From the IMG/VR virus record IMGVR_UViG_2778261428_000004, positions 1 through 39,037 of that record: 39,037 nucleotides of DNA, one strand, 5' to 3'. Each line of letters begins with the position of its first letter. Positions within the stretch are counted from its first letter, which is position 1. Origin of the DNA: a virus. Taxonomy: Duplodnaviria; Heunggongvirae; Uroviricota; Caudoviricetes. A model generated the notes under the pieces. The model made no database searches, was not told the origin of the DNA, and saw nothing but the letters and a program-made list of their open reading frames with translations. Of this stretch, positions 40 through 12,194 are shown one piece after another. A program made the translations under genes and the position numbers.

Positions 40-1059
40 TTGTTGGCGGCTTTTACTAAAATAACGACTGTAGTTAATGAGATTAACCATTTTTGCCCAT
101 TAGATGTGTCAGTTGTTATCCCTGTTCATAATCGTGAAAAACTTATTCTTAAATGCATTAACTCACTTAATAACCAAACAATTAATAAGGATCGCTTTGA
201 GGTTATTTTTGTCGATGATTGTTCAAGTGACAAAAGCATTGCTGCTATAGAATATAATATAGCACCGGATATTAACTACAGAATTATTCGCCGAGAAATT
301 GGTTCAGGTAACGCTTCAACCCCGCGAAATGAGGGGATAAAAGCAGCAAAAGGGCGTTATATTTTCTTCATGGATTCCGATGACTATATTGACGAAACTC
401 TTCTTGAGAGAGGGGTTCATATTGCTGATAAAAATAATAGTGATATTGTTTACTTCAAAATTGCATCAGATGGTAATCGCGAGGTGCCTATCCGTCCATA
501 CAAGGTGAAAATTGTAGATAAGGCAGATATAACCAAGCATCACCTCTTGCGGTCGTTAACTATTTTCAAATTCTTCCGAAGAAATATGCTTAAAGAGCAT
601 AACATTCTCTTCAACCCAGCTATCACCGTAGCTGAAGATAAAATATTTATGGTTCAATCTCTATCTGTAGCAAACAATATATCTATTCTTGCTGACAAAG
701 ATTATTATCATTTAACATTCCATGGTAATGGTCATTTATCAAGGCAAAAATTTCCTCTTGAAGATAGACACTTCATTCTTAACTCGGTTATTAACACGAT
801 TTACTTTTGCGGAAAAACTAACGAAGAAAAGGCCAAGCTTTACAATGCGTGGCTGGTGATATGCCTTGAAATGATGGAAAAGGTATGTGGTAAAGCAGGT
901 GGCAACGAGCAAAAGAAAAGGATGTTCTTTAACATGCTCTCAACCACTTTCAACATCCGCTCAGATTTAGTAAATCAGGATATGATTTATACCCCTCAGC
1001 GTAAGTTCATCAAACCTTTTTTACAAAATAATTATGAAGGTTTTATAGCTGAAATTTAA
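40..1059 (+). CDS. Family 2 glycosyltransferase (GT-A fold); start uncertain (TTG at 40/43 or GTG at 106)
   Basis: N-terminal VSVVIPVHN...FEVIFVDDCSSD and downstream MDSDDY motifs are typical of GT2 enzymes. The gene is markedly AT-rich. Its stop lies 46 bp from the tailspike stop. Confidence 0.7.
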   Translation: MLAAFTKITTVVNEINHFCPLDVSVVIPVHNREKLILKCINSLNNQTINKDRFEVIFVDDCSSDKSIAAIEYNIAPDINYRIIRREIGSGNASTPRNEGIKAAKGRYIFFMDSDDYIDETLLERGVHIADKNNSDIVYFKIASDGNREVPIRPYKVKIVDKADITKHHLLRSLTIFKFFRRNMLKEHNILFNPAITVAEDKIFMVQSLSVANNISILADKDYYHLTFHGNGHLSRQKFPLEDRHFILNSVINTIYFCGKTNEEKAKLYNAWLVICLEMMEKVCGKAGGNEQKKRMFFNMLSTTFNIRSDLVNQDMIYTPQRKFIKPFLQNNYEGFIAEI

Positions 1060-1064
1060 AACAT

Positions 1065-1085
1065 TGCCCAGCATGTAGCTGGGCA
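1065..1085. terminator. Bidirectional stem-loop between converging glycosyltransferase and tailspike genes
   Basis: Perfect 8-bp stem TGCCCAGC / GCTGGGCA with 5-nt loop in the 46-bp gap between two convergent stop codons. Confidence 0.5.
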
Positions 1086-1105: not shown

Positions 1106-3751
1106 TCAACCATTTAGTGTTAACTTTAATAATTTTTCCAGATTATTAATCTTTGATGTGATATTGGCAATATCCTGCTCATGGTGATGATATAATGCGC
1201 TCATTGCCAGAAACATTAACTCGTCATAGCGCACTGATAATTTTCTTCCTGATTCCACAATTAACCTTACTTCACCAGTTTCATACTCTTCTTCCTCTGT
1301 GATTTCATCATACTGACCAGACTCTTCATCAATTAAAATTTTTCTGGTCACATTTCTTGTTGCATAGACTTTCTCATACTCATCATCCCACTCTTCATAG
1401 CAAAGAACCCCATAAGAAAATGCATCAAGCCCCTCAGATTCAAAGATGGATTGTATATCTTGCGCAATTACACCGATATGCTCACGCGCTGACAAGCCTT
1501 TTTCTTTTACAGCATCCTTCATTCTGAATTTTTTTATCAGCGGGTAAATAGCCATTCCAACCCGTAGTTCTGCATCAGATAATGAAGCTTCATCCTGCTT
1601 GTAATTTCTGTCGCTGGTTACAATGGGGCTATTATTTATATACAGGTTTCTGACAGTATTCGACTGTGTACCAATATCATAAAGATTTGAACCTGATGGT
1701 CGAAAATGACCTAATTCTGTTAATACCCATCTGTCACGCAAGCCGTCAATCTCTCCCATGGTTCCAAAGTAGAAAGCAACCGGGATATTGTCTCCGGAAG
1801 GATTACCTCTTGTGACGCATTTAATGTGTGCGCATTGCACAGCCTTACTACCTGTATCACCGGCCCATACATGAGTACCCAATACATCCCCTGTCTGCAG
1901 AGCTCCAAAATTATCAGTTGATACAACACCAGAGCGAGACTTATACATTATTGCTCTTGGTCCTTCTGCGGTGTCTGACTGATGCCGGGAAACCCATGAG
2001 TTGCTCATCCCTTCCGTGCCGTTTGAAGCTAACTGCATTCCACCAGTAATTCCGCCATCAAGAAACAATATAGGGTTATCCCGGTTAGTTTGAATACCCT
2101 TTCTTGTTGGCCAAACTGTCCAGTGAAAAGTATCATTGTATTCCCTTACTCCATATTTGAACTCCGGGGAGCCAGAACTATGAAGACCAGTATTACTGGA
2201 TACAGAACGGCTTGCTTTGCTTTGCACTACCGAACCAGACCTGCCTATATCAAACAGATATACATTTTTCCCGTTCTCAGCAACTCCTTTATATGTGCAT
2301 ATTCCCAGCGTTAAAACATACCCACTCTCCGTTCTAATTACTGTTAGGGACTCAGGCTCTTTATAAACAGGAGTTCCTGTACTGTCAGATTTTGCTTCAT
2401 CATCACCAACAGTTGAAATATCTACTCGCTCAATAAACCTGCCTGTTAAGTCAAATACGTAAATATAATTAGTCATGCCAACATACGTATGTGACTCAAG
2501 TATGTAAATGTATGCCCCATCGCAAGCAATTGATTGGGTAAATGCTTCTTGTGATGGTTTTTGATAGCTAAACTCAACTAAATAATCATCACTATAATCA
2601 GTTTTATGAGATCTGTTATTCCACATGCTGACTATGTCGAAAACACGAACCGTGCAGGTAATTCCATCCGATGAAATTTTCTTGGCAAGTAGATAGTTTT
2701 CACAACTTGATACAGTTGGAGTAGAGCTTGCGCTCATTCCATCATAGGGGAACAACTTCCAGGTGATAAAACCTTCAGATACCCCGTTGGTTGTCCCTGT
2801 GTAACTCAATATATTTTCCATCGAAATACATTGATTGGCGGCATCGGTTCCATAAGGCTTCGATGTCCACAGCACGACAGTACCATCAGGATTATGATGC
2901 AATCCAAGCCCCTGATGCCCAAGTTCAGTAGAACGGGTTCTGTCGTATCTTCCTAGTTCACCAGAATTCGTCACGTCAAAGGCATTAATGCAATAACCGT
3001 ATGCTGTGGTAGATGATAAAGTAAAAATCTTGTCGTTAATTTCATCATAACAACACCCCTGAATGACCGCATATAAACCACCCGCACCTTCAGTTCTGCG
3101 CAACGTGTGTCTGGTGTTATATACTTTTGGCATTCCGGAAAATATCAATGGCTCTCTTTTATCTCTTAATTTAAGATCACCAATCGCAATTCGTTTACTG
3201 CCATCACGAATAAAAGAACCATTTATATAGCTATTTTCAATAAAACTTTTAGTAACAAAAAATGCTCTTCCACTTAAATCAATAACCCTATTTTTTATAT
3301 CCATTTCCAACGCGACAAATGCTTCAGTATCATCGCTAATCCCATCCCCCTTAGCTCCAAAATAAAGAGGAGACATATTTAGCATATCATTTGATAATAC
3401 TTTTTGTTTAAACTGATCCGGGTCGTACTTCAACACATTCGGAAAATAAAACTGCTGCGAACCATACGCATCATATACAGCCATAGAATGGCCTTGCACA
3501 GTTACGAATTTGGCAATCTGTCCGTTATATACCGGATACCCGCCAGCGTTAATGATGATTGGCTGTGCAACAGGAACGTGAGAACCGTCTTCATTCTCTA
3601 CATAAACCTGAATCTGGTTTTCAGGATTTACCGGGTCAGTGTCAATTTTTCCGATATAAATTTTGCCATTGGCAACCGCTTTAAAAGAACGCGCCATAGT
3701 GAAGAGTTGCGAAGGCATGCTTACCACAACATTTGCGGTGATATCTGACAT
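1106..3751 (-). CDS. Tailspike: P22-type N-terminal head-binding domain, divergent central receptor-binding/depolymerase-like domain, C-terminal intramolecular chaperone (peptidase S74-like) domain
   Basis: Start taken at internal ATG 3751 ([11 protein letters not shown]...) with GGAG 7 nt upstream. The first ~115 aa closely match P22 gp9 as recalled. The C-terminal ~130 aa resemble the autocleaving chaperone domain of endosialidase/T5 L-shaped fibre proteins. [14 protein letters not shown] is a beta-helix-type motif. Confidence 0.85.
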
Positions 3752-3872
3752 TTCATTGCTCCAGACGAATGATATGATGCAACCATGATGTGATTGCATA
3801 CCGAAATGGTACTATTGAGTATTTATCCAGTAGGTTACGATGCCATTCCACCCAACTGGTGAGGCATCAAGG
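3752..3872. promoter_or_regulatory. Divergent intergenic region between tailspike and mnt starts; candidate Pmnt / remnant Pant-operator region
   Basis: 121-bp gap between divergent start codons. By analogy with P22 immI this would hold the mnt promoter and Mnt operator, but I could not identify the operator with certainty. Confidence 0.3.
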
Positions 3873-4139
3873 ATGTACAGCAAATACGATGAGGCGCAGT
3901 TTCACTTGAGACTTCCGCATGAACTCCACGCGAAAATTAAGCAGCGTGCGAAGATGAATAACAGATCGCTGAACTCAGAGATAATTGCAGCGATTGAAGA
4001 ATCGTTGGCTAAACAAAGCTCTGCATCCGTTTACATTGATGATGCAGAGCGTATGGCAGAACAACAATCTGATATGGTTAAGAAAATGGTATTTGAAACG
4101 CTTAAGACCATGTATAGCAATAATAAAAAGGAAACATAG
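3873..4139 (+). CDS. mnt: Mnt-family ribbon-helix-helix repressor (P22 immI Mnt homolog)
   Basis: Sequence RLPHELHAKIKQRAKMNNRSLNSEII...DDAERMAEQQSDMVKKMVFETLK aligns with P22 Mnt as recalled. Start taken at internal ATG 3873 with AAGG upstream. Confidence 0.8.
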   Translation: MYSKYDEAQFHLRLPHELHAKIKQRAKMNNRSLNSEIIAAIEESLAKQSSASVYIDDAERMAEQQSDMVKKMVFETLKTMYSNNKKET

Positions 4140-4209
4140 AAATCTAGTTTCCGGCTAAAATGGCATTGCCTTCATGCTATCCTGTGAAAAACTAAGGAGA
4201 GTTAACCAT

Positions 4210-4695
4210 ATGAAAAAATCACTGTTAATTATCCCGCTTCTGCTGGTTGGATGCGCAAAAGTAAGTGACTATCAAGCAAGTTGCGAACAACGCTATCCAA
4301 AGCTTAGCGATATGGCTAATTGTCTTGATGCCAGTGTGAAGAACGACTCACGCATGGCATCAGCACCAACACCTAAGCTGTATGTCCTTGCTGCAAAGAT
4401 GCTCGGGCAAGGTGTCGATGAAGGCAAGATAAGTGACGCACAGGCAAGACTTGAGCTTCAGAATCTTTATGTTCAATTACAAAGCCAAGAACAAGCCCAA
4501 CAAATAGCACAAAGCCAAGCATTCCAGCAGGCTTTATTGAATTATCAGGCTGTAAACACAATGCAAGCGATCGAGCAAAAAGCGCGCCAGCCTGTTATAA
4601 CTCAACCTTACCCAACACGCGTTGACACATATACAAACTGCAATTCAGGATTTGGAAACACGGTAACATGCAACAGTAGCAGTAACATCAGATAA
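4210..4695 (+). CDS. Putative lipoprotein of unknown function (signal peptide plus lipobox LVGC), Gln-rich
   Basis: Start at ATG 4210 with AAGGAG 6 nt upstream. MKKSLLIIPLLLVGCAK is a classic SPII signal/lipobox. It occupies the sieA/immI position between gp16 and the tailspike. Confidence 0.65.
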   Translation: MKKSLLIIPLLLVGCAKVSDYQASCEQRYPKLSDMANCLDASVKNDSRMASAPTPKLYVLAAKMLGQGVDEGKISDAQARLELQNLYVQLQSQEQAQQIAQSQAFQQALLNYQAVNTMQAIEQKARQPVITQPYPTRVDTYTNCNSGFGNTVTCNSSSNIR

Positions 4696-4785
4696 CAATC
4701 AGCAAAGGTATCGCCTATGCAGATGGATACGATAAACCTCGCGTTCTACATATTTGGTTTTTGCACGTTCCTGGTGTTTGAAAGG

Positions 4786-6783
4786 CTATTCTGACAATGC
4801 ATCAGACTTAGCCCCCTGCGTCATGGCGTTAATGGCCTTTTGTGCCTGCTGCATGGCTTTCTCGAACGCTGTTGATCCGCGTGGGGTGTTTGCCATTCGG
4901 AGCATTGCATTTCTGAATGGCTCGCTCTCATAGGCGCGAGTAAGAAGTCCGTAGCTTACCGCTGCGCCAGTTGTCGCAGGGTTCATTGCTGTCCCATATC
5001 CGATAATGAACGGGATGGTTTGCTGCCCTGTTGGTGTTGTTACTGCCGCTTTTGCAGCCTGCTGCGTGGATTGCAGGTAGTTTTTCAATCCTTTCAGATA
5101 AGCGGCTTCCTGACCTTTAAATGTGATGCCAGTCTGGTTTTGCAGGATGTTAAGCTGCCGAAGGAACTGGTCAGGGGAACCACCTGATTTCTCCATCGCC
5201 TTTCCAATGATGCCATTGCGCATTTGCGCCCTGCCAACACGACCAACTGAGTTATACAGAGTCTTAATTTCCGATTTGTTCTTGCTGAATAGCATGTTGT
5301 TGACAACTTCCGGCGTCAGGTCGCCTTTCATGAGAACATTCTTCAGCCTGGTATTCTTTAGTTTCGCCGCTTCGTCAGCGTAGACGGCATTGGCCTGCTG
5401 ATATTTACGAAGAGTATCGTTGCCAAGATTCTGACCAATGGCACCATTGATATCGTCGGTCATCGCCTTGTAAACACGTTGAATGGCGGCATCGGAACGG
5501 TTTGGTAACACTGGTCGCTCCCCCTTCACGTCCATTCTGAACTGGCTGCGCAGATCGCTTAATTGCTTCAAATCCAGATTAACCGGACCATCAGGGCCAG
5601 CATTGCGAACAAGCTCATCACGATATGACTGAAGTTTTGAAATTGTCTCGTTATCAGCTACCTTACCAAGCTTCTGCAGATTAGATATTTCTGTATCAAT
5701 CTGCTGAATTGCTCGCGCAGGCTGAATGTTTACTCCAGCCATAGCATTCTGAACCTGCTCCAGTCGATTACCGGCGGCACGACGAATTCCTGATGTTTTC
5801 GCTTTAAGGCTGTCAATAACAACCGCTGGATCATACTCACCGAATTTATCGGCAAATCTCTGCACCAACTGGCTTCTCGCTTCCTGTTGCGTTGCTCTCA
5901 TTCCGCTTGTGCCAGCCAGAGGGATATTTTCTGCTGTAGTCTGCGCCATTTTTCCGACGCGGGAAGTGGGTTGTAACAGGTCTGTGGTGTGCAGAGGAAC
6001 TCCTTCACGCTCTGCAAATCTGATAGCCTGCTGCGCTTCTGGCGCAATAGCACCACGAACGCCACGATAAGCAGCACCTAATCCACGCCCGGCAGCGTTA
6101 ATAGCAGCGCCAGCAAGTACACCAACGCCTAAATCGGTGGCGAGTGCTTCCGCATCATCTTTCGCACTATTTGCAGCAAGTGATCCAACTGCGTTTTCTG
6201 CTAGAAGGCGAGTTGCCCCCTGAGCAATTCGACCAGCAAGTGTTGGTGCCTGTACCGCCGCTCTCTCAACGCCAGCAGGAGTGAGGTAAGGCAATGCTTC
6301 AGCAAATACCTTTCCCTCTGTCGTTTGTGGAGTCAGCGCACCTTGCTGAAGGCCAAAGTCCTGCTCTAATCCCTGCGTTGTTACTCGTGGTGCTGGTTGA
6401 TATGTACCATCGCCAATACCGAGTTTACCGCCAGCCCAAGCCGCCGCGCTTGTTACAGCATCGGCAACTGATGCAGGTATGTTTGCCACGTTCACGCCAG
6501 CCTGCACCATTCCGCGACCAGTCTCTTTTACTGCTTCGCCAAGATCAGACATAAATCCACTTTGCTGTGGTTGTTGCTGTGCTACTGGTTGCTGTGTCTC
6601 CACTGACTGCACAAATGGCAATGGATAGGCAGCATAGAAAGCTTGCTTAGCCTGCTCTGCATTTTCTCCGGCTTGCGGGGCCACGACTTCATTGAAGTAT
6701 TGCTCCTGAGCCTGCGCTTTTTGTTCTGGTGCTAACGCCTGATACTGTGGAGAGGCGATAACATCTTTCCATGCTTTAGCCAT
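4786..6783 (-). CDS. Ejection (internal virion) protein, P22 gp16-like
   Basis: Position last in the 7-20-16 ejection protein series; long Ala/Gly/Gln-rich protein. Assigned by synteny with P22. Confidence 0.7.
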   Translation of the reverse strand: MAKAWKDVIASPQYQALAPEQKAQAQEQYFNEVVAPQAGENAEQAKQAFYAAYPLPFVQSVETQQPVAQQQPQQSGFMSDLGEAVKETGRGMVQAGVNVANIPASVADAVTSAAAWAGGKLGIGDGTYQPAPRVTTQGLEQDFGLQQGALTPQTTEGKVFAEALPYLTPAGVERAAVQAPTLAGRIAQGATRLLAENAVGSLAANSAKDDAEALATDLGVGVLAGAAINAAGRGLGAAYRGVRGAIAPEAQQAIRFAEREGVPLHTTDLLQPTSRVGKMAQTTAENIPLAGTSGMRATQQEARSQLVQRFADKFGEYDPAVVIDSLKAKTSGIRRAAGNRLEQVQNAMAGVNIQPARAIQQIDTEISNLQKLGKVADNETISKLQSYRDELVRNAGPDGPVNLDLKQLSDLRSQFRMDVKGERPVLPNRSDAAIQRVYKAMTDDINGAIGQNLGNDTLRKYQQANAVYADEAAKLKNTRLKNVLMKGDLTPEVVNNMLFSKNKSEIKTLYNSVGRVGRAQMRNGIIGKAMEKSGGSPDQFLRQLNILQNQTGITFKGQEAAYLKGLKNYLQSTQQAAKAAVTTPTGQQTIPFIIGYGTAMNPATTGAAVSYGLLTRAYESEPFRNAMLRMANTPRGSTAFEKAMQQAQKAINAMTQGAKSDALSE

Positions 6784-8180
6784 TAATCACCCCATAGTGA
6801 AGAAAAGTTACTGCTGGCTGCTGGCTGTGATACCTGTGCAGGTTGAGATTGCTGCCGCTGAGATTTACCAACATTAACGTTATATTGTTGGTTGTAATTG
6901 TTGGTGTATTCCTGAATCTCACGAATCGACTGCTGCATAGCCTCCGGGCTTGAATAGTCAACCTGCGGCATCCCCTGAAAATACATCTTCGCTTCTGCAA
7001 CGGTGTTAATACCACTGGCACCCATGTCCCTTGCTGCCGCCACACCCTGATTCTGCATTCTGCCCTGAATACGTTGTGCTGAGTTATATAACTGGCGCTG
7101 CTCTTTTCCCGTTAATCGGCTGCGAACATCAGCACCAATTGCTGGATTACCTGCACCGCCTGTCATTCCTGTCATGAAATCGAGAGCAGAAGCGTCTGCA
7201 TTTGCGATCGCGTCGATATCCTTCTTCATGGCATAGTTTTGTGCTGATGCAGACGATGTTGCCGGCGCAGCGATTGAACTGGCAGGAACGCGAACCATAT
7301 TCCCCTCGTTGTCGATGCCTTCGTAGAACGCATTAGCCCCAGCGCCGTGAAGCTTCCCGCCTACCGTTACAGTTCTGCCATCTGATAACTGAACTGTACG
7401 CTCATCATTCCCAGCAGTTCCTCTTGTTGACGATCGCTGCATTGCCAAATCCTGACCGCGTCGTGCAGTAGAAGCAGATAAATCCTGACCGCGCATCGTG
7501 ATGTTCTGACCACGCGCTGTTAGTGCTTCTCCAGCCTGATTGCTGCGGATTGTCTCTGCCAGTCTGCCTCGGTCAATTTCACGACCAGCCATCTTGTCCT
7601 GAACAGCAAACGCCTTTTCTGGCCCAAGTGCACCGAGAGACATAGTAGTCAGCATGTGTGATAGCTGCTCTGGATTCTGGATACCTGTCTGAATCATCCA
7701 GTCAGCATTCGCCCCCACGCGATTTAACCTGTCCTTGTTGTCAGTAATGAATTTACTGTAGGCTTCCGGTCCCTGAGAAAGAGCGACGTTAGCCCTCATG
7801 GCTAAATCGCCCATATCGTTGCGTTGCTGCTCATTAAGACCGGAAAACGCCTGTTGTGCCTGCGCAACAAACGCTGGATTTTCCTGGGCAAACTTAAATA
7901 GTCCCGATGGATCACCAGAAGCCCATGCATCAGCGTGAACCTTATTGAACGCACTAATAGCTTTCTGTTGCTGTTCCTGATTGTAAATATCAGCAACTCC
8001 AGCCAGACCACGTAACGCGGTCAGACCAACGTTATTTGCACCTGAGCGAGCCAGTTCATTGTTTTCGCGGATCAGACCAAGCGTTGCGTTAATGTCGCTT
8101 GCCTTTGGCGCATTCTCATTTTGCGTACCGATGCCAGCCAGAAAACCACCAGAATTAATACCCTGTTGCCACGTAGCCAT
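6783..8180 (-). CDS. Ejection protein, P22 gp20-like
   Basis: 465 aa against 471 aa for P22 gp20; synteny between gp7 and gp16. Confidence 0.7.
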
Positions 8181-8189
8181 GATTACCCC

Positions 8190-8885
8190 TTAAAACAACG
8201 AGCCAAGCAGACCAAGACCGCCACCAACAGCGGCACCAATACCAGTACCAATACCAGGAACAATGCTGCCAAGTTGTGCTCCAGCAATTGCTCCAGAGGC
8301 AGCCCCGCCTATTGCAGATTGAAGGCCGGAAGGTCTATTAGCGTTTGCCGCCGCCAGTGCCGCGCTTTGCTGTGAAATCTGGCTCATGTTGTTGGCATAT
8401 GTTTGCCCGGCGTTTGCCTGTCCCTGAAGAGCGCCAAGACCAATATTTGCCAGATTCTGGTAGTTGTTCATTTGTCCAGATAGCCATTGCTGGCCAAGAG
8501 TTGGTGCGATTGTTGCTAACTGATTACTGGTTGCGGTGGAACCTAATCCACCTGTTGCTTCCGCTGCCGCCAGACTCTGATAGCGCGCCTGACCAGCAAG
8601 GTCTTTGTACTGCTGAGAGTTGTAATACTGGTTAAGCGCCTGACCTTGCCCCTCCAGAGACGATAAGTTCTCGAGGCTGCCGACATACTTCTCAGCCAGA
8701 GGAGTAAACGGTTTCAGGTTGTTCATGATGGTGTTGAACTGCTGATTTTGCAGGTCTGCGGCATACTTCTGAGCTTCTGCTGCATACTTTGCGCTTTTAT
8801 CAGAGCTGCCACCTTTCCCGCCTTTTTCAGGGCAATAAGGTTCCTCGCCGCGCAGTTTTCTGCCCAGCTTAAATGCATATAACAT
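8190..8885 (-). CDS. Ejection protein, P22 gp7-like
   Basis: 231 aa; N-terminus MLYAFKLGRKLRGEEP and Gly/Ala-rich C-terminus as in P22 gp7 as recalled; synteny. Confidence 0.75.
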   Translation of the reverse strand: MLYAFKLGRKLRGEEPYCPEKGGKGGSSDKSAKYAAEAQKYAADLQNQQFNTIMNNLKPFTPLAEKYVGSLENLSSLEGQGQALNQYYNSQQYKDLAGQARYQSLAAAEATGGLGSTATSNQLATIAPTLGQQWLSGQMNNYQNLANIGLGALQGQANAGQTYANNMSQISQQSAALAAANANRPSGLQSAIGGAASGAIAGAQLGSIVPGIGTGIGAAVGGGLGLLGSLF

Positions 8886-8887
8886 GG

Positions 8888-9343
8888 CTATCTCCCGTGA
8901 TTCAGGAAGTCGATTAGTTCTTCGCGTGTGGCGCTGTAAAACGTCACGTCATCCACGCCTTTGAAGTATTTCTTGATGGTTCCTACTCGCTTAAGGCCAA
9001 TCATTGCGCAGTACATCTGACCGTGGCGGAATTTGCGCGCAGCGAACGATGTGACGCACTGAACGGTGGTGTTAGTCAGAATGTATCGCCAGAACGCCAG
9101 CCCGATTTCCTTGCTGAATCCACGAACCTCTGGCAGGTACATGGCGTGGCAATCAAAGGTCAAAGGCTGAATCTCCTGATAGTAAACAATGCCGCCGAAC
9201 TGCCCGTGCACGTTCACCTCAAAGTAACGGCATTCAGGCTTGTAGTCGTATCCATCACCGTTGTTGCTCCCGGCAATAATGTCAGGGTGATTTCCGACAG
9301 CTTCGATCAGGTCGATGTTTCGCGTTGGTTTGAATGTAATCAT
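8888..9343 (-). CDS. Virion assembly protein, P22 gp14-like (by synteny)
   Basis: Located between tail needle gp26 and gp7 exactly as P22 gene 14; the sequence was not independently recognised. Confidence 0.55.
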   Translation of the reverse strand: MITFKPTRNIDLIEAVGNHPDIIAGSNNGDGYDYKPECRYFEVNVHGQFGGIVYYQEIQPLTFDCHAMYLPEVRGFSKEIGLAFWRYILTNTTVQCVTSFAARKFRHGQMYCAMIGLKRVGTIKKYFKGVDDVTFYSATREELIDFLNHGR

Positions 9344-10044
9344 CAGTCAATCAGCCCATGTAATCTAAGTGCCGTTTCAAGCGCCAGAATACGCTGCCGC
9401 GCCTGCTGCAAACCTGTAGCGAGAGCCGCGACTTCGGATTGTGTGTACGTAGTGCCGACCGTGTATGACTGGTTAGCGTTGAATGAGCCAAGAAGTGGCG
9501 TACCTGTGGCTGCAGTCCATCCGGTATTTCTTGCTCCAACAACCTGAATTCCATCAACTGAATATGATGTTTTTACATCCAGCGGTGATGCAAGAGACTG
9601 CGATTCGGTTACGGTTTTCGATACGTAATCACTCTTAATGTCAGATACATCGCTTTCTACGCCATCCAGTCTTTGGTCAACAGTGACCAGATGCCCCTGA
9701 ATATCGATAACCTCATCCAGCAAGTAATCAACATCGCTACGCAGTACGACTATCTTCCCTTCGGCAGTTGTTAACCTGACCTCAAGGAGATTTATCGCTT
9801 TTGTGTTTGCGGTGATTCTTGCATCGTGGTCAGCCAGTTCGACGTCCTGTTCATCGTTTTTTACCTGGGCATCGTAAGCGCCCTGACCAGCCTGATTTGC
9901 CTTCCCGGCAATTGCGCCGACATCAGCCCCCTGATTAATGACATACAGCAGGTAAGACTGGCTGAAGATATTGCGTGGAAGGATTGATGTATCGAGCCGC
10001 GTCGCCTGAACAATAACCGGTGTGTTGAGATTCGAATCAGCCAT
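9343..10044 (-). CDS. Tail needle protein, P22 gp26-like
   Basis: Start at internal ATG 10044 ([18 protein letters not shown]...), overlapping the gp10 stop. Strong match to P22 gp26 including C-terminal ...[12 protein letters not shown]. Confidence 0.85.
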
Positions 10045-11462
10045 TACTCGATCCTTATCTGGCAGCCAGACAGAGTGACAGGTGACTTCGTGATAACGCG
10101 CAATTTGAAGCCGACATTTTTCCTGATGCGCCCGACTCGCTTCCACAAAACACGCTTGTCGTAAACGAACGGTTCATTCTGCTCAATCATCTGCTCACGC
10201 CCGTAATTGATGCCGTCAGTGGTTGCAGAGAGGAACAGGCGGTCGGCGTACTGAGCTACGCCAGTTGAAGATTCAACCTCAAAGTCGAAAACTCTGGCGT
10301 TATCCGCTTTGAACAACGGAGTAAACAGCAGGTGTTCCTGTTGCTTGTCGTACTGGCTGCTGATGTCGAATTGCAATTTCCCGGTCACGGACTCCAGCTT
10401 ATCGCCGCACGTTATCTGATTGCCTTCGTAAATGAAGTCGATAGCGCGGTACACATCGTCATACAAGCCTGTTTTCAGCACACACCATTGCGGACCATTG
10501 GCGCTTGAAGATGCGTCGTAAACAAGAACATGGCGCGGCAGGTGAATAATCAGCAACTCATGAGCATCAAACCGCAACGATTCCATCACGCCATCAGCCA
10601 GTTCATCAGCCGTGTAGGAGCGTAGTATTTTCTCAATGCTCGCGCTGGCGATTGGTGATACCTGACCGGAGCCGATGATGTATACAGACGGCGCACCTGT
10701 TGCCGGATTGCTGATGAACGCATACGAATCAGCAAACGGCGTTTTGCAGTAAGTTCCGGCAATACCTTTCTGCACCATCAGCGATGGCTGTGCGACATAC
10801 AAAGCGGCACCAATGGTGGTTGCACCAGTCAGGGAGAAATATTCAATCGTCGATGAACCAAAGCAGACGATGAAGTCTCGCCATGTTCCGATGCCGAGGA
10901 TACCGTCCGGCTGCGATTCTGCGCGATATTGTGCGCTGTAACGGTCAGGATGCGATTCGTCTTCAAGGTCAGTGATAAACCATGAATCAGAGCCGTCTTT
11001 TGACCACGCATAACGCCCACGTAAGCGCGTAATGTCACGAACAGAACCTAACTCATACTGAGTGAATCCGCTGTCTGTAGGCCAGTTTGAGACGGTTTTA
11101 ACCGTGCCATCATAGCGATACTCAACCAGTTGACCATTAACGCCTACAGCCTGAGATGTTCGACCATGCGCCATTGATACGCGACCACTTCCGGCAACAT
11201 CACCGACTTCACTTTCTCCTTTGTACAGCTTGCCGCCACACACGCGATAAACAACATTCTGCGCCATGTTGTACTCGACGCCTCGCGATACTCCGTTCAC
11301 ATCAGAACGTTTGGCAATGCCCGGGAATGAGCGAAGATATCCGCTGCTGTTCAGGATTTCTTTGGGTGTAGCCAGCATATTCACTGGCAGATAGTCGATA
11401 TAGTCGGCATTTCGGAAGTCTTTGCCGACACCTTTCATGAGCGGAAGTTGCTGAATCGGCAT
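10044..11462 (-). CDS. Tail hub / tail accessory protein, P22 gp10-like
   Basis: 472 aa, the same length as P22 gp10; synteny between gp4 and gp26. Confidence 0.8.
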
Positions 11463-11939
11463 TATTCGCTCCCGTTATCGCAAGGTTCCTTTCGGTGGAA
11501 GTAATTCCAACCGTTCCACTTCGCCAACTGGTTACCGCTACCAACAGGCATACGGTTTGGATAACCGGACTTACATTTAGCGGCTTTTGCTCTGTCCATT
11601 GCAGACAGTTTGACGAGTCGCTCTTTCCCGTATCTGGCAGTGGTTATAAGTTTTGCTGACGCTTCCAGCGCATAATCCGGAGCAATGCGGCAGGCAAGGT
11701 TGAAAATGACGGCATTGATAGCGTTATTTGATAAACCGTGCTCATCTCCCGGATCTGGAGCGACATCTGCATCAGCGAAAATGTAGCCAACGTTGATACC
11801 TGGTGACACATCACCGCCAAGCCATTCAGCCATCATCATTTCAAGGTCGTTGACGCCGTCTTCCATAGACTGCGGTTCGACATCGGTTAACGTGGCATTT
11901 GATGCCACACCGAGCTTACGTAATGCCGCAAGAACTAAA

Positions 11940-11962
<23 letters not shown>
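11462..11962 (-). CDS. Head completion / tail adaptor protein, P22 gp4-like
   Basis: From ATG 11962 ([33 protein letters not shown]...) it matches P22 gp4 as recalled. The upstream QSQSQS extension of the ORF is not taken as coding for this gene. Confidence 0.8.

Positions 11963-12194
<232 letters not shown>

What the first reader, a model, noticed from the sequence alone, without database searches (positions are those of the whole stretch)
1106..3751. Chimeric tailspike: P22 head-binding domain, unrecognised central domain, C-terminal intramolecular chaperone
Residues 1 to about 115 are P22 gp9-like, so the protein docks on a P22-type tail. The following roughly 630 residues are unlike the P22 endorhamnosidase and look like a different beta-rich receptor-binding or depolymerase domain ([11 protein letters not shown] motif near its start). 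The last roughly 130 residues resemble the self-cleaving chaperone domain found in endosialidase-type tailspikes and T5 L-shaped fibre. This domain swap probably sets a host range distinct from P22.
Basis: partly seen in the sequence, partly recalled or inferred. Interest (0 to 1): 0.5.

Follow-up and report, generated by a model that had tools for sequence, protein, structure and literature searches.

The report
P22-type tailspike with five-bladed propeller
This is a modular tail-spike gene of a P22/Sf6-like E. coli prophage: it has the standard P22 docking domain and a self-cleaving folding chaperone, but its host-recognition part is an uncharacterised five-bladed beta-propeller instead of the usual beta-helix enzyme, which makes it an unusual example of a well-known kind of protein.

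Summary
An intact minus-strand ORF (1106..3751, 881 aa) has a full P22 head-binding domain (res 1-113, Pfam E 9e-67). It also has a Peptidase_S74 intramolecular chaperone (Pfam E 7e-8; PDB 6eu4 E 8e-24). Its Ser713/Lys718 align with the catalytic dyad columns of the GA-1, T5 pb1 and endoNF chaperones.

The "unrecognised" centre resolves into three pieces:
- an endosialidase-type N-terminal cap (res ~127-200);
- a five-bladed beta-propeller (res ~201-520);
- a beta-stalk whose tip resembles the T5 L-shaped-fibre tip (res ~601-712).

No characterised tailspike aligns end to end. The same recognition module also sits on T7-like and SU10-like phages. Receptor and catalysis remain unknown: two lysogens carry different O-antigen clusters (O7, O51).

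Verdict: a new member of a known kind (modular tailspike with S74 chaperone; propeller-type receptor domain). Moderate interest.

The parts
1106..3751 (-). Complete tailspike CDS (881 aa plus stop at 1106-1108). Precursor 97.9 kDa.
   Evidence: ORF list; translation and masses. Full-length copies at 97-98% DNA identity are annotated 'phage tailspike protein' in 4 of 5,426 complete E. coli genomes.
3759..3762 (-). Shine-Dalgarno GGAG, 7 nt upstream of ATG 3751. It supports this start over the in-frame ATG at 3799.
   Evidence: Sequence read.
3413..3751 (-). P22-type head-binding (tail-docking) domain, res 1-113.
   Evidence: Pfam PF09008 E 8.7e-67 over the full profile. Sf6 gp14 7sg7 aligns over res 1-120 at E 1.6e-64; P22 gp9 entries at E 1e-44 to 7e-51.
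3374..3412 (-). Very AT-rich linker (18% GC), res 114-126. Junction between the conserved adaptor and the exchangeable receptor module.
   Evidence: Per-domain GC. In alignment A1 the N-termini differ upstream of '[12 protein letters not shown]'.
3152..3373 (-). N-terminal cap of the receptor module (endosialidase 'End_N_terminal'-like; holds [11 protein letters not shown]), res ~127-200.
   Evidence: Pfam PF12218 is weak in the query (E 0.03) but above the cut-off in relatives P0013 and P0017. The A2 profile hits the endoNF N-terminus and Dpo31. Model pLDDT is mostly 83-95, falling to ~70 over the last ~20 residues.
2192..3151 (-). Five-bladed beta-propeller ('platform'-type receptor-binding domain), res ~201-520. 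Conserved inner-strand residues: Q231, D236, H279, Q280, W295, S348, R369, D385, Q406, D411, E465, E467.
1952..2191 (-). Connector / proximal stalk, res ~521-600. Probably folds only in the trimer.
   Evidence: Low monomer confidence, pLDDT ~43-57 for most of it, rising to ~75-80 at its C-terminal end. Inference from trimeric stalks of endoNF and T5 pb1.
1616..1951 (-). Distal beta-stalk / tip, res ~601-712. Related to the last ~100 residues of the mature T5 L-shaped fibre pb1, and to a unit repeated in many long fibre proteins.
   Evidence: A2 profile positions 492-592 match 4uw7/4uw8 residues 193-294, E 1.4e-4. The full-length query matches pb1 over res 613-791. The unit recurs up to 10 times in long proteins. 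pLDDT mostly 84-96, lower (67) at the C-terminal end.
1613..1615 (-). Codon of Ser713, the predicted S74 nucleophile. Predicted autocleavage is between Thr712 and Ser713.
   Evidence: It aligns with the first residue of the released GA-1 chaperone (SDERHK), and with an Ala in the T5 pb1 (4uw8) and endoNF (3gw6) chains. I read those Ala residues as the published Ser-to-Ala mutants (own knowledge).
1598..1600 (-). Codon of Lys718, the predicted general base of the Ser-Lys dyad (i+5).
   Evidence: Lys is aligned in 6eu4, 3gud, 4uw8 and 3gw6. It is invariant in all 9 homologues.
1109..1615 (-). C-terminal intramolecular chaperone domain (Peptidase S74), res 713-881, 19.6 kDa. Predicted to be released after trimer folding.
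   Evidence: Pfam PF13884 33 bits against a cut-off of 22. PDB: 6eu4 E 8e-24, 3gud 1e-14, 4uw8 7e-14, 3gw6 5e-13.
1066..1084 (.). 7-bp GC-rich hairpin (GCCCAGC-ATGTA-GCTGGGC) in the 46-bp gap between the convergent tailspike and glycosyltransferase genes. Likely the tailspike terminator: TTTT follows on the minus strand.
   Evidence: Sequence read. Function inferred.

Best explanation
The gene encodes the tailspike (receptor-binding protein) of a P22/Sf6-like temperate podophage of E. coli. It is built from exchangeable modules.

Docking. Residues 1-113 attach the trimer to the P22-type tail hub.

Receptor module. After an AT-rich junction, the module follows the endosialidase (CUS-3/K1F) plan of cap, beta-propeller, beta-stalk and S74 chaperone. 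The propeller, however, is five-bladed. It is homologous to the 'platform' of the Gram-positive phage receptor-binding proteins phi11 Gp45, 80alpha, P68 and NF5.

Likely sequence of events (inferred from the S74 family):
1. Three chains are zipped together from the C-terminus by the chaperone domains.
2. Ser713, assisted by Lys718, then cuts the chain at T712|S713. This releases a 19.6-kDa chaperone and leaves a 78-kDa mature spike. Its distal tip is the T5-pb1-like stalk.

Receptor contact. The conserved pocket at the centre of each propeller (Q231, H279/Q280, S348, Q406, D411, E465/E467) engages a sugar unit of a surface polysaccharide, either O-antigen or capsule. The stalk possibly adds a second binding site.

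Catalysis. Every characterised P22-type spike I know of is an enzyme (own knowledge), and the nearest non-viral folds are carbohydrate-active five-bladed propellers. I therefore lean (about 55:45) towards the pocket also cleaving or modifying the glycan, so the virion can descend to the outer membrane. Neither catalysis nor the identity of the glycan is shown.
For: Shown by computation:
- Domain matches.
- Ser713/Lys718 fall in the catalytic columns and Lys718 is invariant in 9 homologues.
- The window is collinear with Sf6, Gally and IME10 structural genes at 92-93% identity.
- Deep-alignment AF2 model: mean pLDDT 85, propeller mostly 83-97.
- Sequence-profile homology to the P68, phi11 and 80alpha platforms, E 2e-13 to 1e-9.
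- In those alignments, phi11's proposed GlcNAc-pocket residues Gln165, Thr211 and Gln330 (PMC4901313) fall on or next to Q231, GHQ280G and Q406. The E-x-E motif is shared as well.
- These residues are 82-100% conserved in 104 homologues of 23-45% identity.
- The same module at 64-72% identity sits on a T7-like and on an SU10-like phage contig.

Inferred: the order of folding and cleavage, the role of the pocket, and catalysis.
Against: - The query itself scores below Pfam's cut-off for PF21311 (15.6 against 23.7 bits) and for End_N_terminal (14.5 against 26.3). Membership rests on relatives, profiles and the fold.
- No enzymatic activity has been shown for any phi11-type platform propeller in the papers read.
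- Pocket residues that stay invariant across phages of very different hosts are not what one expects of specificity determinants. They could be purely structural.
- The carrier genomes examined have different O-antigen clusters: O7 in strain C and O51 in GMF054. No receptor can be assigned from this.
- The structure was predicted as a monomer. Trimer geometry and the connector (res ~521-600) are unresolved.
Confidence: 0.75

Rival explanations
1. Non-catalytic adhesin. The propeller and stalk only bind the surface glycan reversibly, as proposed for phi11, P68 and T5 pb1. The phage reaches the membrane without degrading the polysaccharide.
For: - The closest structural and sequence relatives (phi11 Gp45, 80alpha gp61, P68 gp17, NF5 gp18) are described as binding proteins with no demonstrated catalysis.
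- T5 pb1, to which the stalk tip is related, binds polymannose O-antigen without cleaving it (own knowledge of the T5 literature).
- Propeller-type 'depolymerases' predict capsule type poorly, and their 'characteristics in phages remain unclear' (PMC12491483).
Against: - All characterised P22-like tailspikes (P22, Sf6, HK620, CUS-3) are enzymes (own knowledge). A short-tailed virion has to cross the O-antigen layer.
- The pocket holds near-invariant acidic and His residues (D411, E465, E467, H279), as enzyme active sites in five-bladed propellers do.
- The next-best folds are hydrolases and cyclases.
Confidence: 0.35
2. A divergent endosialidase (GH58) like the CUS-3 tailspike, specific for the K1 polysialic-acid capsule.
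For: Same overall plan as CUS-3: P22 head-binding domain, End_N_terminal-like cap, propeller, stalk and S74 chaperone. CUS-3 similarity extends to res 148.
Against: - No hit to the endosialidase propeller or stalk Pfam families in the query.
- No sequence match to endoNF beyond the cap and the chaperone.
Confidence: 0.03
3. A decaying, non-functional prophage gene with no present role.
For: In E. coli strain C the gene sits in a heavily degraded prophage remnant at argW. It is rare: 4 of 5,426 complete genomes.
Against: - The ORF is intact, with a good ribosome-binding site, inside a window collinear with complete P22-like phages.
- Its 90%-identity cluster holds 269 member sequences.
- All catalytic and conserved residues are retained.
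- In CUVM3 and GMF054 it lies beside intact tail/ejection genes of a P22-like prophage.
Confidence: 0.05

Closest known systems
CUS-3 / K1F endosialidase tailspikes (GH58, endoNF structure 3gvj/3gw6)
   Same: Same modular plan. In CUS-3: P22 head-binding adaptor, End_N_terminal-type cap, beta-propeller, trimeric beta-stalk, then a C-terminal S74 chaperone cleaved at a Ser-Lys dyad. Cap and chaperone are detectably homologous.
   Different: The propeller here is five-bladed and of the PF21311/phi11 type. It is not the six-bladed sialidase propeller with an inserted lectin-like barrel. There is no match to the endosialidase propeller or stalk families. Substrate unknown.
Receptor-binding proteins of phi11 (Gp45, 5efv), 80alpha (gp61, 6v8i), P68 (gp17, 6iab), all Staphylococcus phages, and Brochothrix phage NF5 (gp18, 9m7x)
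   Different: Those proteins are stem-platform-tower baseplate or tail-fibre proteins of Gram-positive phages that bind wall teichoic acid. They have no End_N_terminal cap, no T5-like stalk and no S74 chaperone. This one is the spike of a Gram-negative P22-like podophage.
P22 gp9, Sf6 gp14 and HK620 tailspikes
   Same: Head-binding domain (Sf6 gp14 aligns over res 1-120 at E 1.6e-64, 91% identical over res 1-114), gene position after the ejection-protein genes, and presumably the same docking on the tail.
   Different: Their receptor domains are right-handed beta-helix endoglycosidases without an S74 chaperone. No similarity beyond res ~120-150.
T5 L-shaped tail fibre pb1 C-terminus (4uw7/4uw8) and Acinetobacter phage AS12 gp42 (6eu4)
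   Same: The pre-cleavage stalk/tip and the S74 chaperone are homologous: pb1 over res 613-791, 6eu4 over res 684-799.
   Different: pb1 is a long fibre and 6eu4 is, to my knowledge, a beta-helix spike. Neither has a propeller.
Tail spikes of Escherichia phages Pollock, Gally and vB_EcoP-683R2 (uncharacterised)
   Same: Among 50,697 phage records, these are the only ones with tblastn-detectable similarity in the propeller. Pollock: 25.8% identity over 85% of cap+propeller, and 27.7% over res 128-848. Gally and 683R2 also have the P22 head-binding domain.
   Different: Only 26-32% identical in the propeller. Gally has no S74 hit. No specificity or activity was found for any of them in the papers searched.

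Membership tests
P22-type tailspike head-binding domain (Pfam PF09008) | Full-length match to the 113-residue domain at the N-terminus | tested here: met
   E 8.7e-67, profile positions 1-113 of 113. Sf6 gp14 aligns over res 1-120.
P22-type tailspike head-binding domain (Pfam PF09008) | Gene lies in the late region of a P22-like genome, after the ejection-protein genes | tested here: met
   A gp16-like gene lies at 4786-6783. The window is collinear with Sf6, Gally and IME10. Same order in CUVM3 and GMF054.
P22-type tailspike head-binding domain (Pfam PF09008) | Trimer docks on the gp4/gp10 tail hub | not testable with these tools
   Needs virion cryo-EM or binding assays.
Peptidase S74 / C-terminal intramolecular chaperone domain | Sequence match above the curated threshold | tested here: met
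   33 bits against a cut-off of 22. PDB relatives at E 8e-24 to 5e-13.
Peptidase S74 / C-terminal intramolecular chaperone domain | Catalytic Ser and Lys five residues apart at the domain start | tested here: met
   S713-D-R-N-Y-K718. Ser aligns with Ser1 of GA-1 chain 3gud and with an Ala in the 4uw8 and 3gw6 chains, which I read as the S-to-A mutants (own knowledge). Lys is aligned in all.
Peptidase S74 / C-terminal intramolecular chaperone domain | Preceded by a trimeric beta-stalk whose folding it assists | tested here: inconclusive
   The pre-cleavage region is homologous to those of T5 pb1 and 6eu4. Trimeric state was not modelled.
Peptidase S74 / C-terminal intramolecular chaperone domain | Autoproteolytic release after trimerisation | not testable with these tools
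   Needs expression of wild type against S713A/K718A.
Phage five-bladed propeller receptor-binding platform (Pfam PF21311) | Sequence match above the curated threshold | tested here: not met
   The query scores 15.6 bits against a cut-off of 23.7, E 0.012. Relatives do pass: P0002 (80% id) 32.3, P0011 29.2, P0009 25.8 bits; P0028 47.2 bits.
Phage five-bladed propeller receptor-binding platform (Pfam PF21311) | Homology to the founding structures (phi11, P68, 80alpha) | tested here: met
   Family profile A4 against PDB: P68 2.4e-13, phi11 9e-10, 80alpha 1e-9, over the whole propeller.
Phage five-bladed propeller receptor-binding platform (Pfam PF21311) | Five-bladed propeller fold | tested here: met
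Phage five-bladed propeller receptor-binding platform (Pfam PF21311) | Stem-platform-tower architecture of the Gram-positive RBPs | tested here: not met
Endosialidase tailspike (GH58) | Six-bladed sialidase propeller with inserted lectin-like barrel, and the endosialidase stalk domain | tested here: not met
Endosialidase tailspike (GH58) | End_N_terminal cap | tested here: inconclusive
   Query E 0.03, below the cut-off. Relatives P0013 and P0017 are above it. The A2 profile hits the endoNF N-terminus at E 3e-4.
Right-handed beta-helix tailspike depolymerases (P22 gp9, Sf6, HK620 type) | Parallel beta-helix catalytic domain | tested here: not met
   No sequence match after res ~150. The predicted fold is a propeller.
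Five-bladed propeller glycoside hydrolases (GH43/62/32/68/159) | Fold plus the family-specific Asp/Asp/Glu (or Asp/Glu) catalytic residues | tested here: inconclusive

The most novel reading that the evidence does not exclude
The invariant Q/H/D/E-x-E pocket could be a catalytic site of a not-yet-described class of phage glycan-processing enzymes built on a five-bladed propeller. That would make this spike an enzyme of unknown chemistry. It would also imply that the homologous 'platform' domains of phi11/P68-type staphylococcal phages, so far treated as passive teichoic-acid binders, are enzymes too. A related possibility follows from carriers having different O-antigen clusters (O7, O51): the target might be a glycan element shared across serogroups rather than one O-type.
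Probability: 0.15. Interest if true: 0.65.

Novelty: new member of a known kind. Interest (0 to 1): 0.35.

Why it matters
Tailspikes set the host range of P22-like phages. They are used as typing reagents, in engineered pyocins and as depolymerase drugs.

Almost everything known about them comes from beta-helix enzymes and the six-bladed endosialidases. Propeller-type receptor domains make up an estimated 12-18% of predicted phage depolymerases, yet "their characteristics in phages remain unclear" (PMC12491483).

This gene offers a compact, expressible example on the best-understood podophage chassis. It has a clear homology bridge to the staphylococcal phi11/P68 receptor-binding proteins and a defined set of pocket residues to mutate. 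Beyond that it is an ordinary case of module swapping. It does not challenge any current concept.

Tried and rejected
1. Receptor inference from lysogen serotype.
- Strain C carries an O7 cluster; its wzx is 100% identical to that of E. coli B.
- GMF054 carries O51.
- CUVM3 and CPww7 are not among the 28 O51 genomes.
- Whether they are O7 could not be read, because only 60 of 95 O7 hits are listed.
- Their O-locus could not be reached by synteny because of rearrangements.
- Result: no common O-type, so no receptor call.

2. The PHROG label 'tail spike protein with colonic acid degradation activity' (phrog_8280) was rejected as evidence. It is a propagated annotation, and most of the score comes from the head-binding domain.

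3. The first AF2 run with 8 sequences gave an unusable stalk (pLDDT below 50). It was replaced by a 69-sequence run.

4. A word-indexed search with the propeller profile A4 returned only fragments of the query's own cluster. The single-sequence search gave just 11 proteins. The exhaustive HMM search was needed to see the family: 5,301 representatives at E up to 1e-3, although a good part of these match only the stalk repeat unit rather than the propeller.

5. NCBIfam has no model for the spike.

6. Literature searches found no biochemical or structural study of a five-bladed-propeller tailspike from a Gram-negative phage. Nothing was found on the receptor of Gally. No paper searched dealt with the Pollock or 683R2 spikes.

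7. Endosialidase, beta-helix and pseudogene readings were considered and rejected (see rivals).
Full report
**1. What is there**

Window 1106..3799 holds one long minus-strand ORF.
- The start at 3751 (MSDITANVV...) matches P22-type tailspike N-termini. It has GGAG 7 nt upstream.
- The product is 881 aa, 97.9 kDa.
- The window as a whole is a P22/Sf6-like (Lederbergvirus) genome. Positions ~3400-12000 are 92-93% identical to the ejection, needle and head-completion genes of Gally, vB_EcoP-683R2, IME10 and Sf6.
- Full-length copies of the spike (97-98% DNA identity) occur in only 4 of 5,426 complete E. coli genomes, annotated 'phage tailspike protein'. About 1,140 genomes share only the first ~390 nt, the head-binding domain.
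- No record among 50,697 phage genomes covers 80% or more of the protein.

**2. The two ends**

N-terminus. Pfam Head_binding matches res 1-113 over the whole profile (E 8.7e-67). Sf6 gp14 aligns over res 1-120, with 91% identity over res 1-114, and P22 gp9 aligns over res 1-115.

C-terminus. Pfam Peptidase_S74 matches res 713-774 above its cut-off. The last 202 residues hit five solved chaperone-bearing proteins:

| PDB entry | Protein | E-value |
|---|---|---|
| 6eu4 | tail spike protein | 8e-24 |
| 3gud | GA-1 neck appendage | 1e-14 |
| 9vvr | tail spike protein | 3e-14 |
| 4uw8 | T5 pb1 | 7e-14 |
| 3gw6 | endoNF | 5e-13 |

In those alignments 'T-S713-D-R-N-Y-K718' lines up as follows:
- with the first residues of the released GA-1 chaperone (SDERHK);
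- with 'T-A-D-A-R-L-K' of the T5 chain;
- with 'T-A-N-G-E-R-K' of the endoNF chain.

I read the Ala in the T5 and endoNF chains as the published Ser-to-Ala mutants (own knowledge). The Ser-Lys dyad is therefore present. Lys718 is invariant in nine homologues.

The predicted cut at T712|S713 leaves a 78.4-kDa mature spike and a 19.6-kDa (169 aa) chaperone.

**3. The centre**

Homologues.
- A word-indexed search of 5.8 billion proteins found only 11 proteins.
- Their alignment shows that everything from '[12 protein letters not shown]' (res ~127) to the C-terminus is one module, 55-80% identical in the close relatives.
- That module is fused to quite different N-termini: the TSP1/gp66 N-terminal domain, the T7 tail-fibre N-terminus, or none recognisable.
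- An exhaustive HMM search with the central alignment found 5,301 representative proteins at E up to 1e-3, and 81 at E up to 1e-30.
- The hits fall into two sub-modules: profile positions ~5-390, and a unit at ~445-590 that recurs up to ten times in long fibre proteins.
- Pfam on representatives gives End_N_terminal + Phage_RBD_prop (PF21311, five-bladed propeller) + S74 or Peptidase_G2.
- The query itself is below the PF21311 cut-off (15.6 against 23.7 bits). Its 80%-identical relative P0002, and also P0009 and P0011, pass it.

Structure prediction and fold search.
- With 8 sequences the model was mediocre.
- With 69 sequences it reached mean pLDDT 85: propeller mostly 83-97, stalk tip mostly 84-96, and the connector ~43-57.
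- No endosialidase is in the top 60.
- Foldseek gives the same top group: phi11, 80alpha, NF5 and P68, E 7e-14 to 6e-12.

Sequence-level homology.
- A profile of 11 diverse propeller segments hits P68 gp17 (E 2.4e-13), phi11 Gp45 (9e-10) and 80alpha gp61 (1e-9) across the whole domain.
- Flanking pieces: profile positions 9-64 match the endoNF N-terminal cap and Dpo31.
- Positions 492-592 match the last ~100 residues of mature T5 pb1.

**4. The pocket**

Across 104 homologues that are only 23-45% identical to the query, a set of polar residues is 82-100% conserved: Q231, D236, H279, Q280, W295, S348, R369, D385, Q406, D411, E465 and E467.
- By the secondary structure of the model, most of them sit on or just before the innermost strand of successive blades. 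They would therefore line the central cavity. This is inferred, as I had no coordinates.
- In the alignments, phi11/80alpha Met164-Gln165 aligns with the family's Q231. Gly-His209-Gly-Thr211 aligns with G-H279-Q280-G. Met329-Gln330 aligns with Q406. 'QEAEGL' (phi11/80alpha) and 'KEPEGI' (P68) align with 'KE465PE467SL'.
- Koc et al. proposed exactly Gln165, Thr211 and Gln330 as the walls of a GlcNAc-sized cavity in phi11 Gp45. They could not obtain a complex, and they showed no catalysis (PMC4901313).
- The P68 and NF5 papers likewise treat the platform as a binding domain.
- So the pocket is homologous to a proposed sugar site. Whether it is catalytic is open.

**5. How it most likely works**

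Shown: the module composition, the intact dyad, the propeller homology and the mobility of the module.

Inferred from the S74 family (own knowledge of the endoNF, GA-1 and T5 work): the C-terminal domains nucleate trimerisation of the stalk, then cut themselves off. The freed C-terminus forms the distal tip.

Inferred from position and homology: three propellers per spike and six spikes per virion present 18 pockets to a surface polysaccharide.

I lean slightly towards an enzymatic role, for three reasons:
- every characterised P22-type spike I know of is an enzyme (own knowledge);
- the pocket carries near-invariant Asp, Glu and His;
- the nearest non-viral folds are carbohydrate-active.

The non-catalytic adhesin reading keeps about one third of the probability.

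**6. Receptor**

I tried to read the receptor from the lysogens.
- Strain C has an O7 cluster.
- GMF054 has an O51 cluster.
- CUVM3 and CPww7 are not O51.
- With so few genomes, and with one prophage being a remnant, no receptor can be named.

**7. Mobility and origin**

- The receptor module is AT-rich: cap 33% GC, propeller 41%, chaperone 37%, against 50% for the phage backbone. It begins after an 18%-GC linker.
- A 64%-identical copy is the tail fibre of a T7-like 38-kb contig.
- A 72%-identical copy is one of two spikes of a 74-kb SU10-like contig.
- Others lie in Leclercia genomes.
- This is the usual horizontal exchange of receptor domains behind genus-specific adaptors, as described by Pas et al. 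(PMC10408124).

**8. Comparison and novelty**

- The plan is that of the CUS-3/K1F endosialidases, but with a different, five-bladed propeller. It is not a GH58 member.
- Among cultured phages, only the uncharacterised spikes of Pollock, Gally and 683R2 show detectable propeller similarity, at 26-32% identity.
- 'n-bladed propeller' receptor domains are already a recognised, computationally defined class, about 12-18% of predicted depolymerases. Their function is described as unclear (PMC11326577, PMC12491483).
- I found no experimental study of such a spike from a Gram-negative phage.
- I therefore file it as a new member of a known kind. It is real, intact and somewhat unusual, but not conceptually new. 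Interest 0.35.

Noticed in passing
window 40-1059 (+): A family-2 glycosyltransferase gene, cut at its 5' end by the window start, 35% GC (phrog_22088, GtrB-like hits; no specific NCBIfam equivalog). It lies tail-to-tail with the spike and is adjacent to it in all three carrier genomes inspected (strain C, CUVM3, GMF054). This is the position of the P22 O-antigen conversion locus. It is probably a receptor-modifying moron that travels with this spike.
   Followed up: partly
window 3374-3412 (-), res 114-126: A 39-nt stretch of only 18% GC, exactly at the junction between the head-binding domain and the receptor module. It is a likely recombination joint. CUS-3 annotates a 'boundary sequence' at the equivalent place.
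   Followed up: partly
window 4174-4695 (+) and 3840-4139 (+): Two small plus-strand genes lie between the spike and the gp16-like ejection gene. One is an Arc/Mnt-like DNA-binding protein. The other is a putative lipoprotein (MKKSLLIIPLLLVGC lipobox, phrog_6067, function unknown), possibly a superinfection-exclusion moron.
   Followed up: no
P0003 (Leclercia sp. W6 homologue), column of Ser713: The S74 nucleophile column holds Cys (TCSREYK instead of TSDRNYK), with Ser one position later. This is either a Cys nucleophile or a register shift of the cleavage site.
   Followed up: no
L011 6001-8916; L012 6001-8757: The same cap-propeller-stalk-chaperone module (64% and 72% identical) serves as the tail fibre of a T7-like phage contig and as the second of two spikes in a 74-kb SU10-like phage contig.
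   Followed up: yes
window 1616-2191 (-), profile positions 445-590 of A2: The stalk unit recurs up to ten times within single very long (1,200-2,700 aa) proteins in the representative library. It looks like a widespread fibre repeat of which T5 pb1's tip is one copy.
   Followed up: no
L001 (E. coli strain C, NZ_CP029371.1 4296070-4310734): Here the spike, the GT2 gene and intS survive at tRNA-Arg (argW) inside a heavily eroded prophage that retains Arc, Ant and a Rap1a/Tai immunity gene. The strain's O7 wzx is 100% identical to that of E. coli B strains, which lack this spike.
   Followed up: partly
window 1066-1084: A 7-bp GC hairpin sits in the 46-bp gap between the convergent spike and GT2 genes. 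A T-run follows only on the spike's strand.
   Followed up: no
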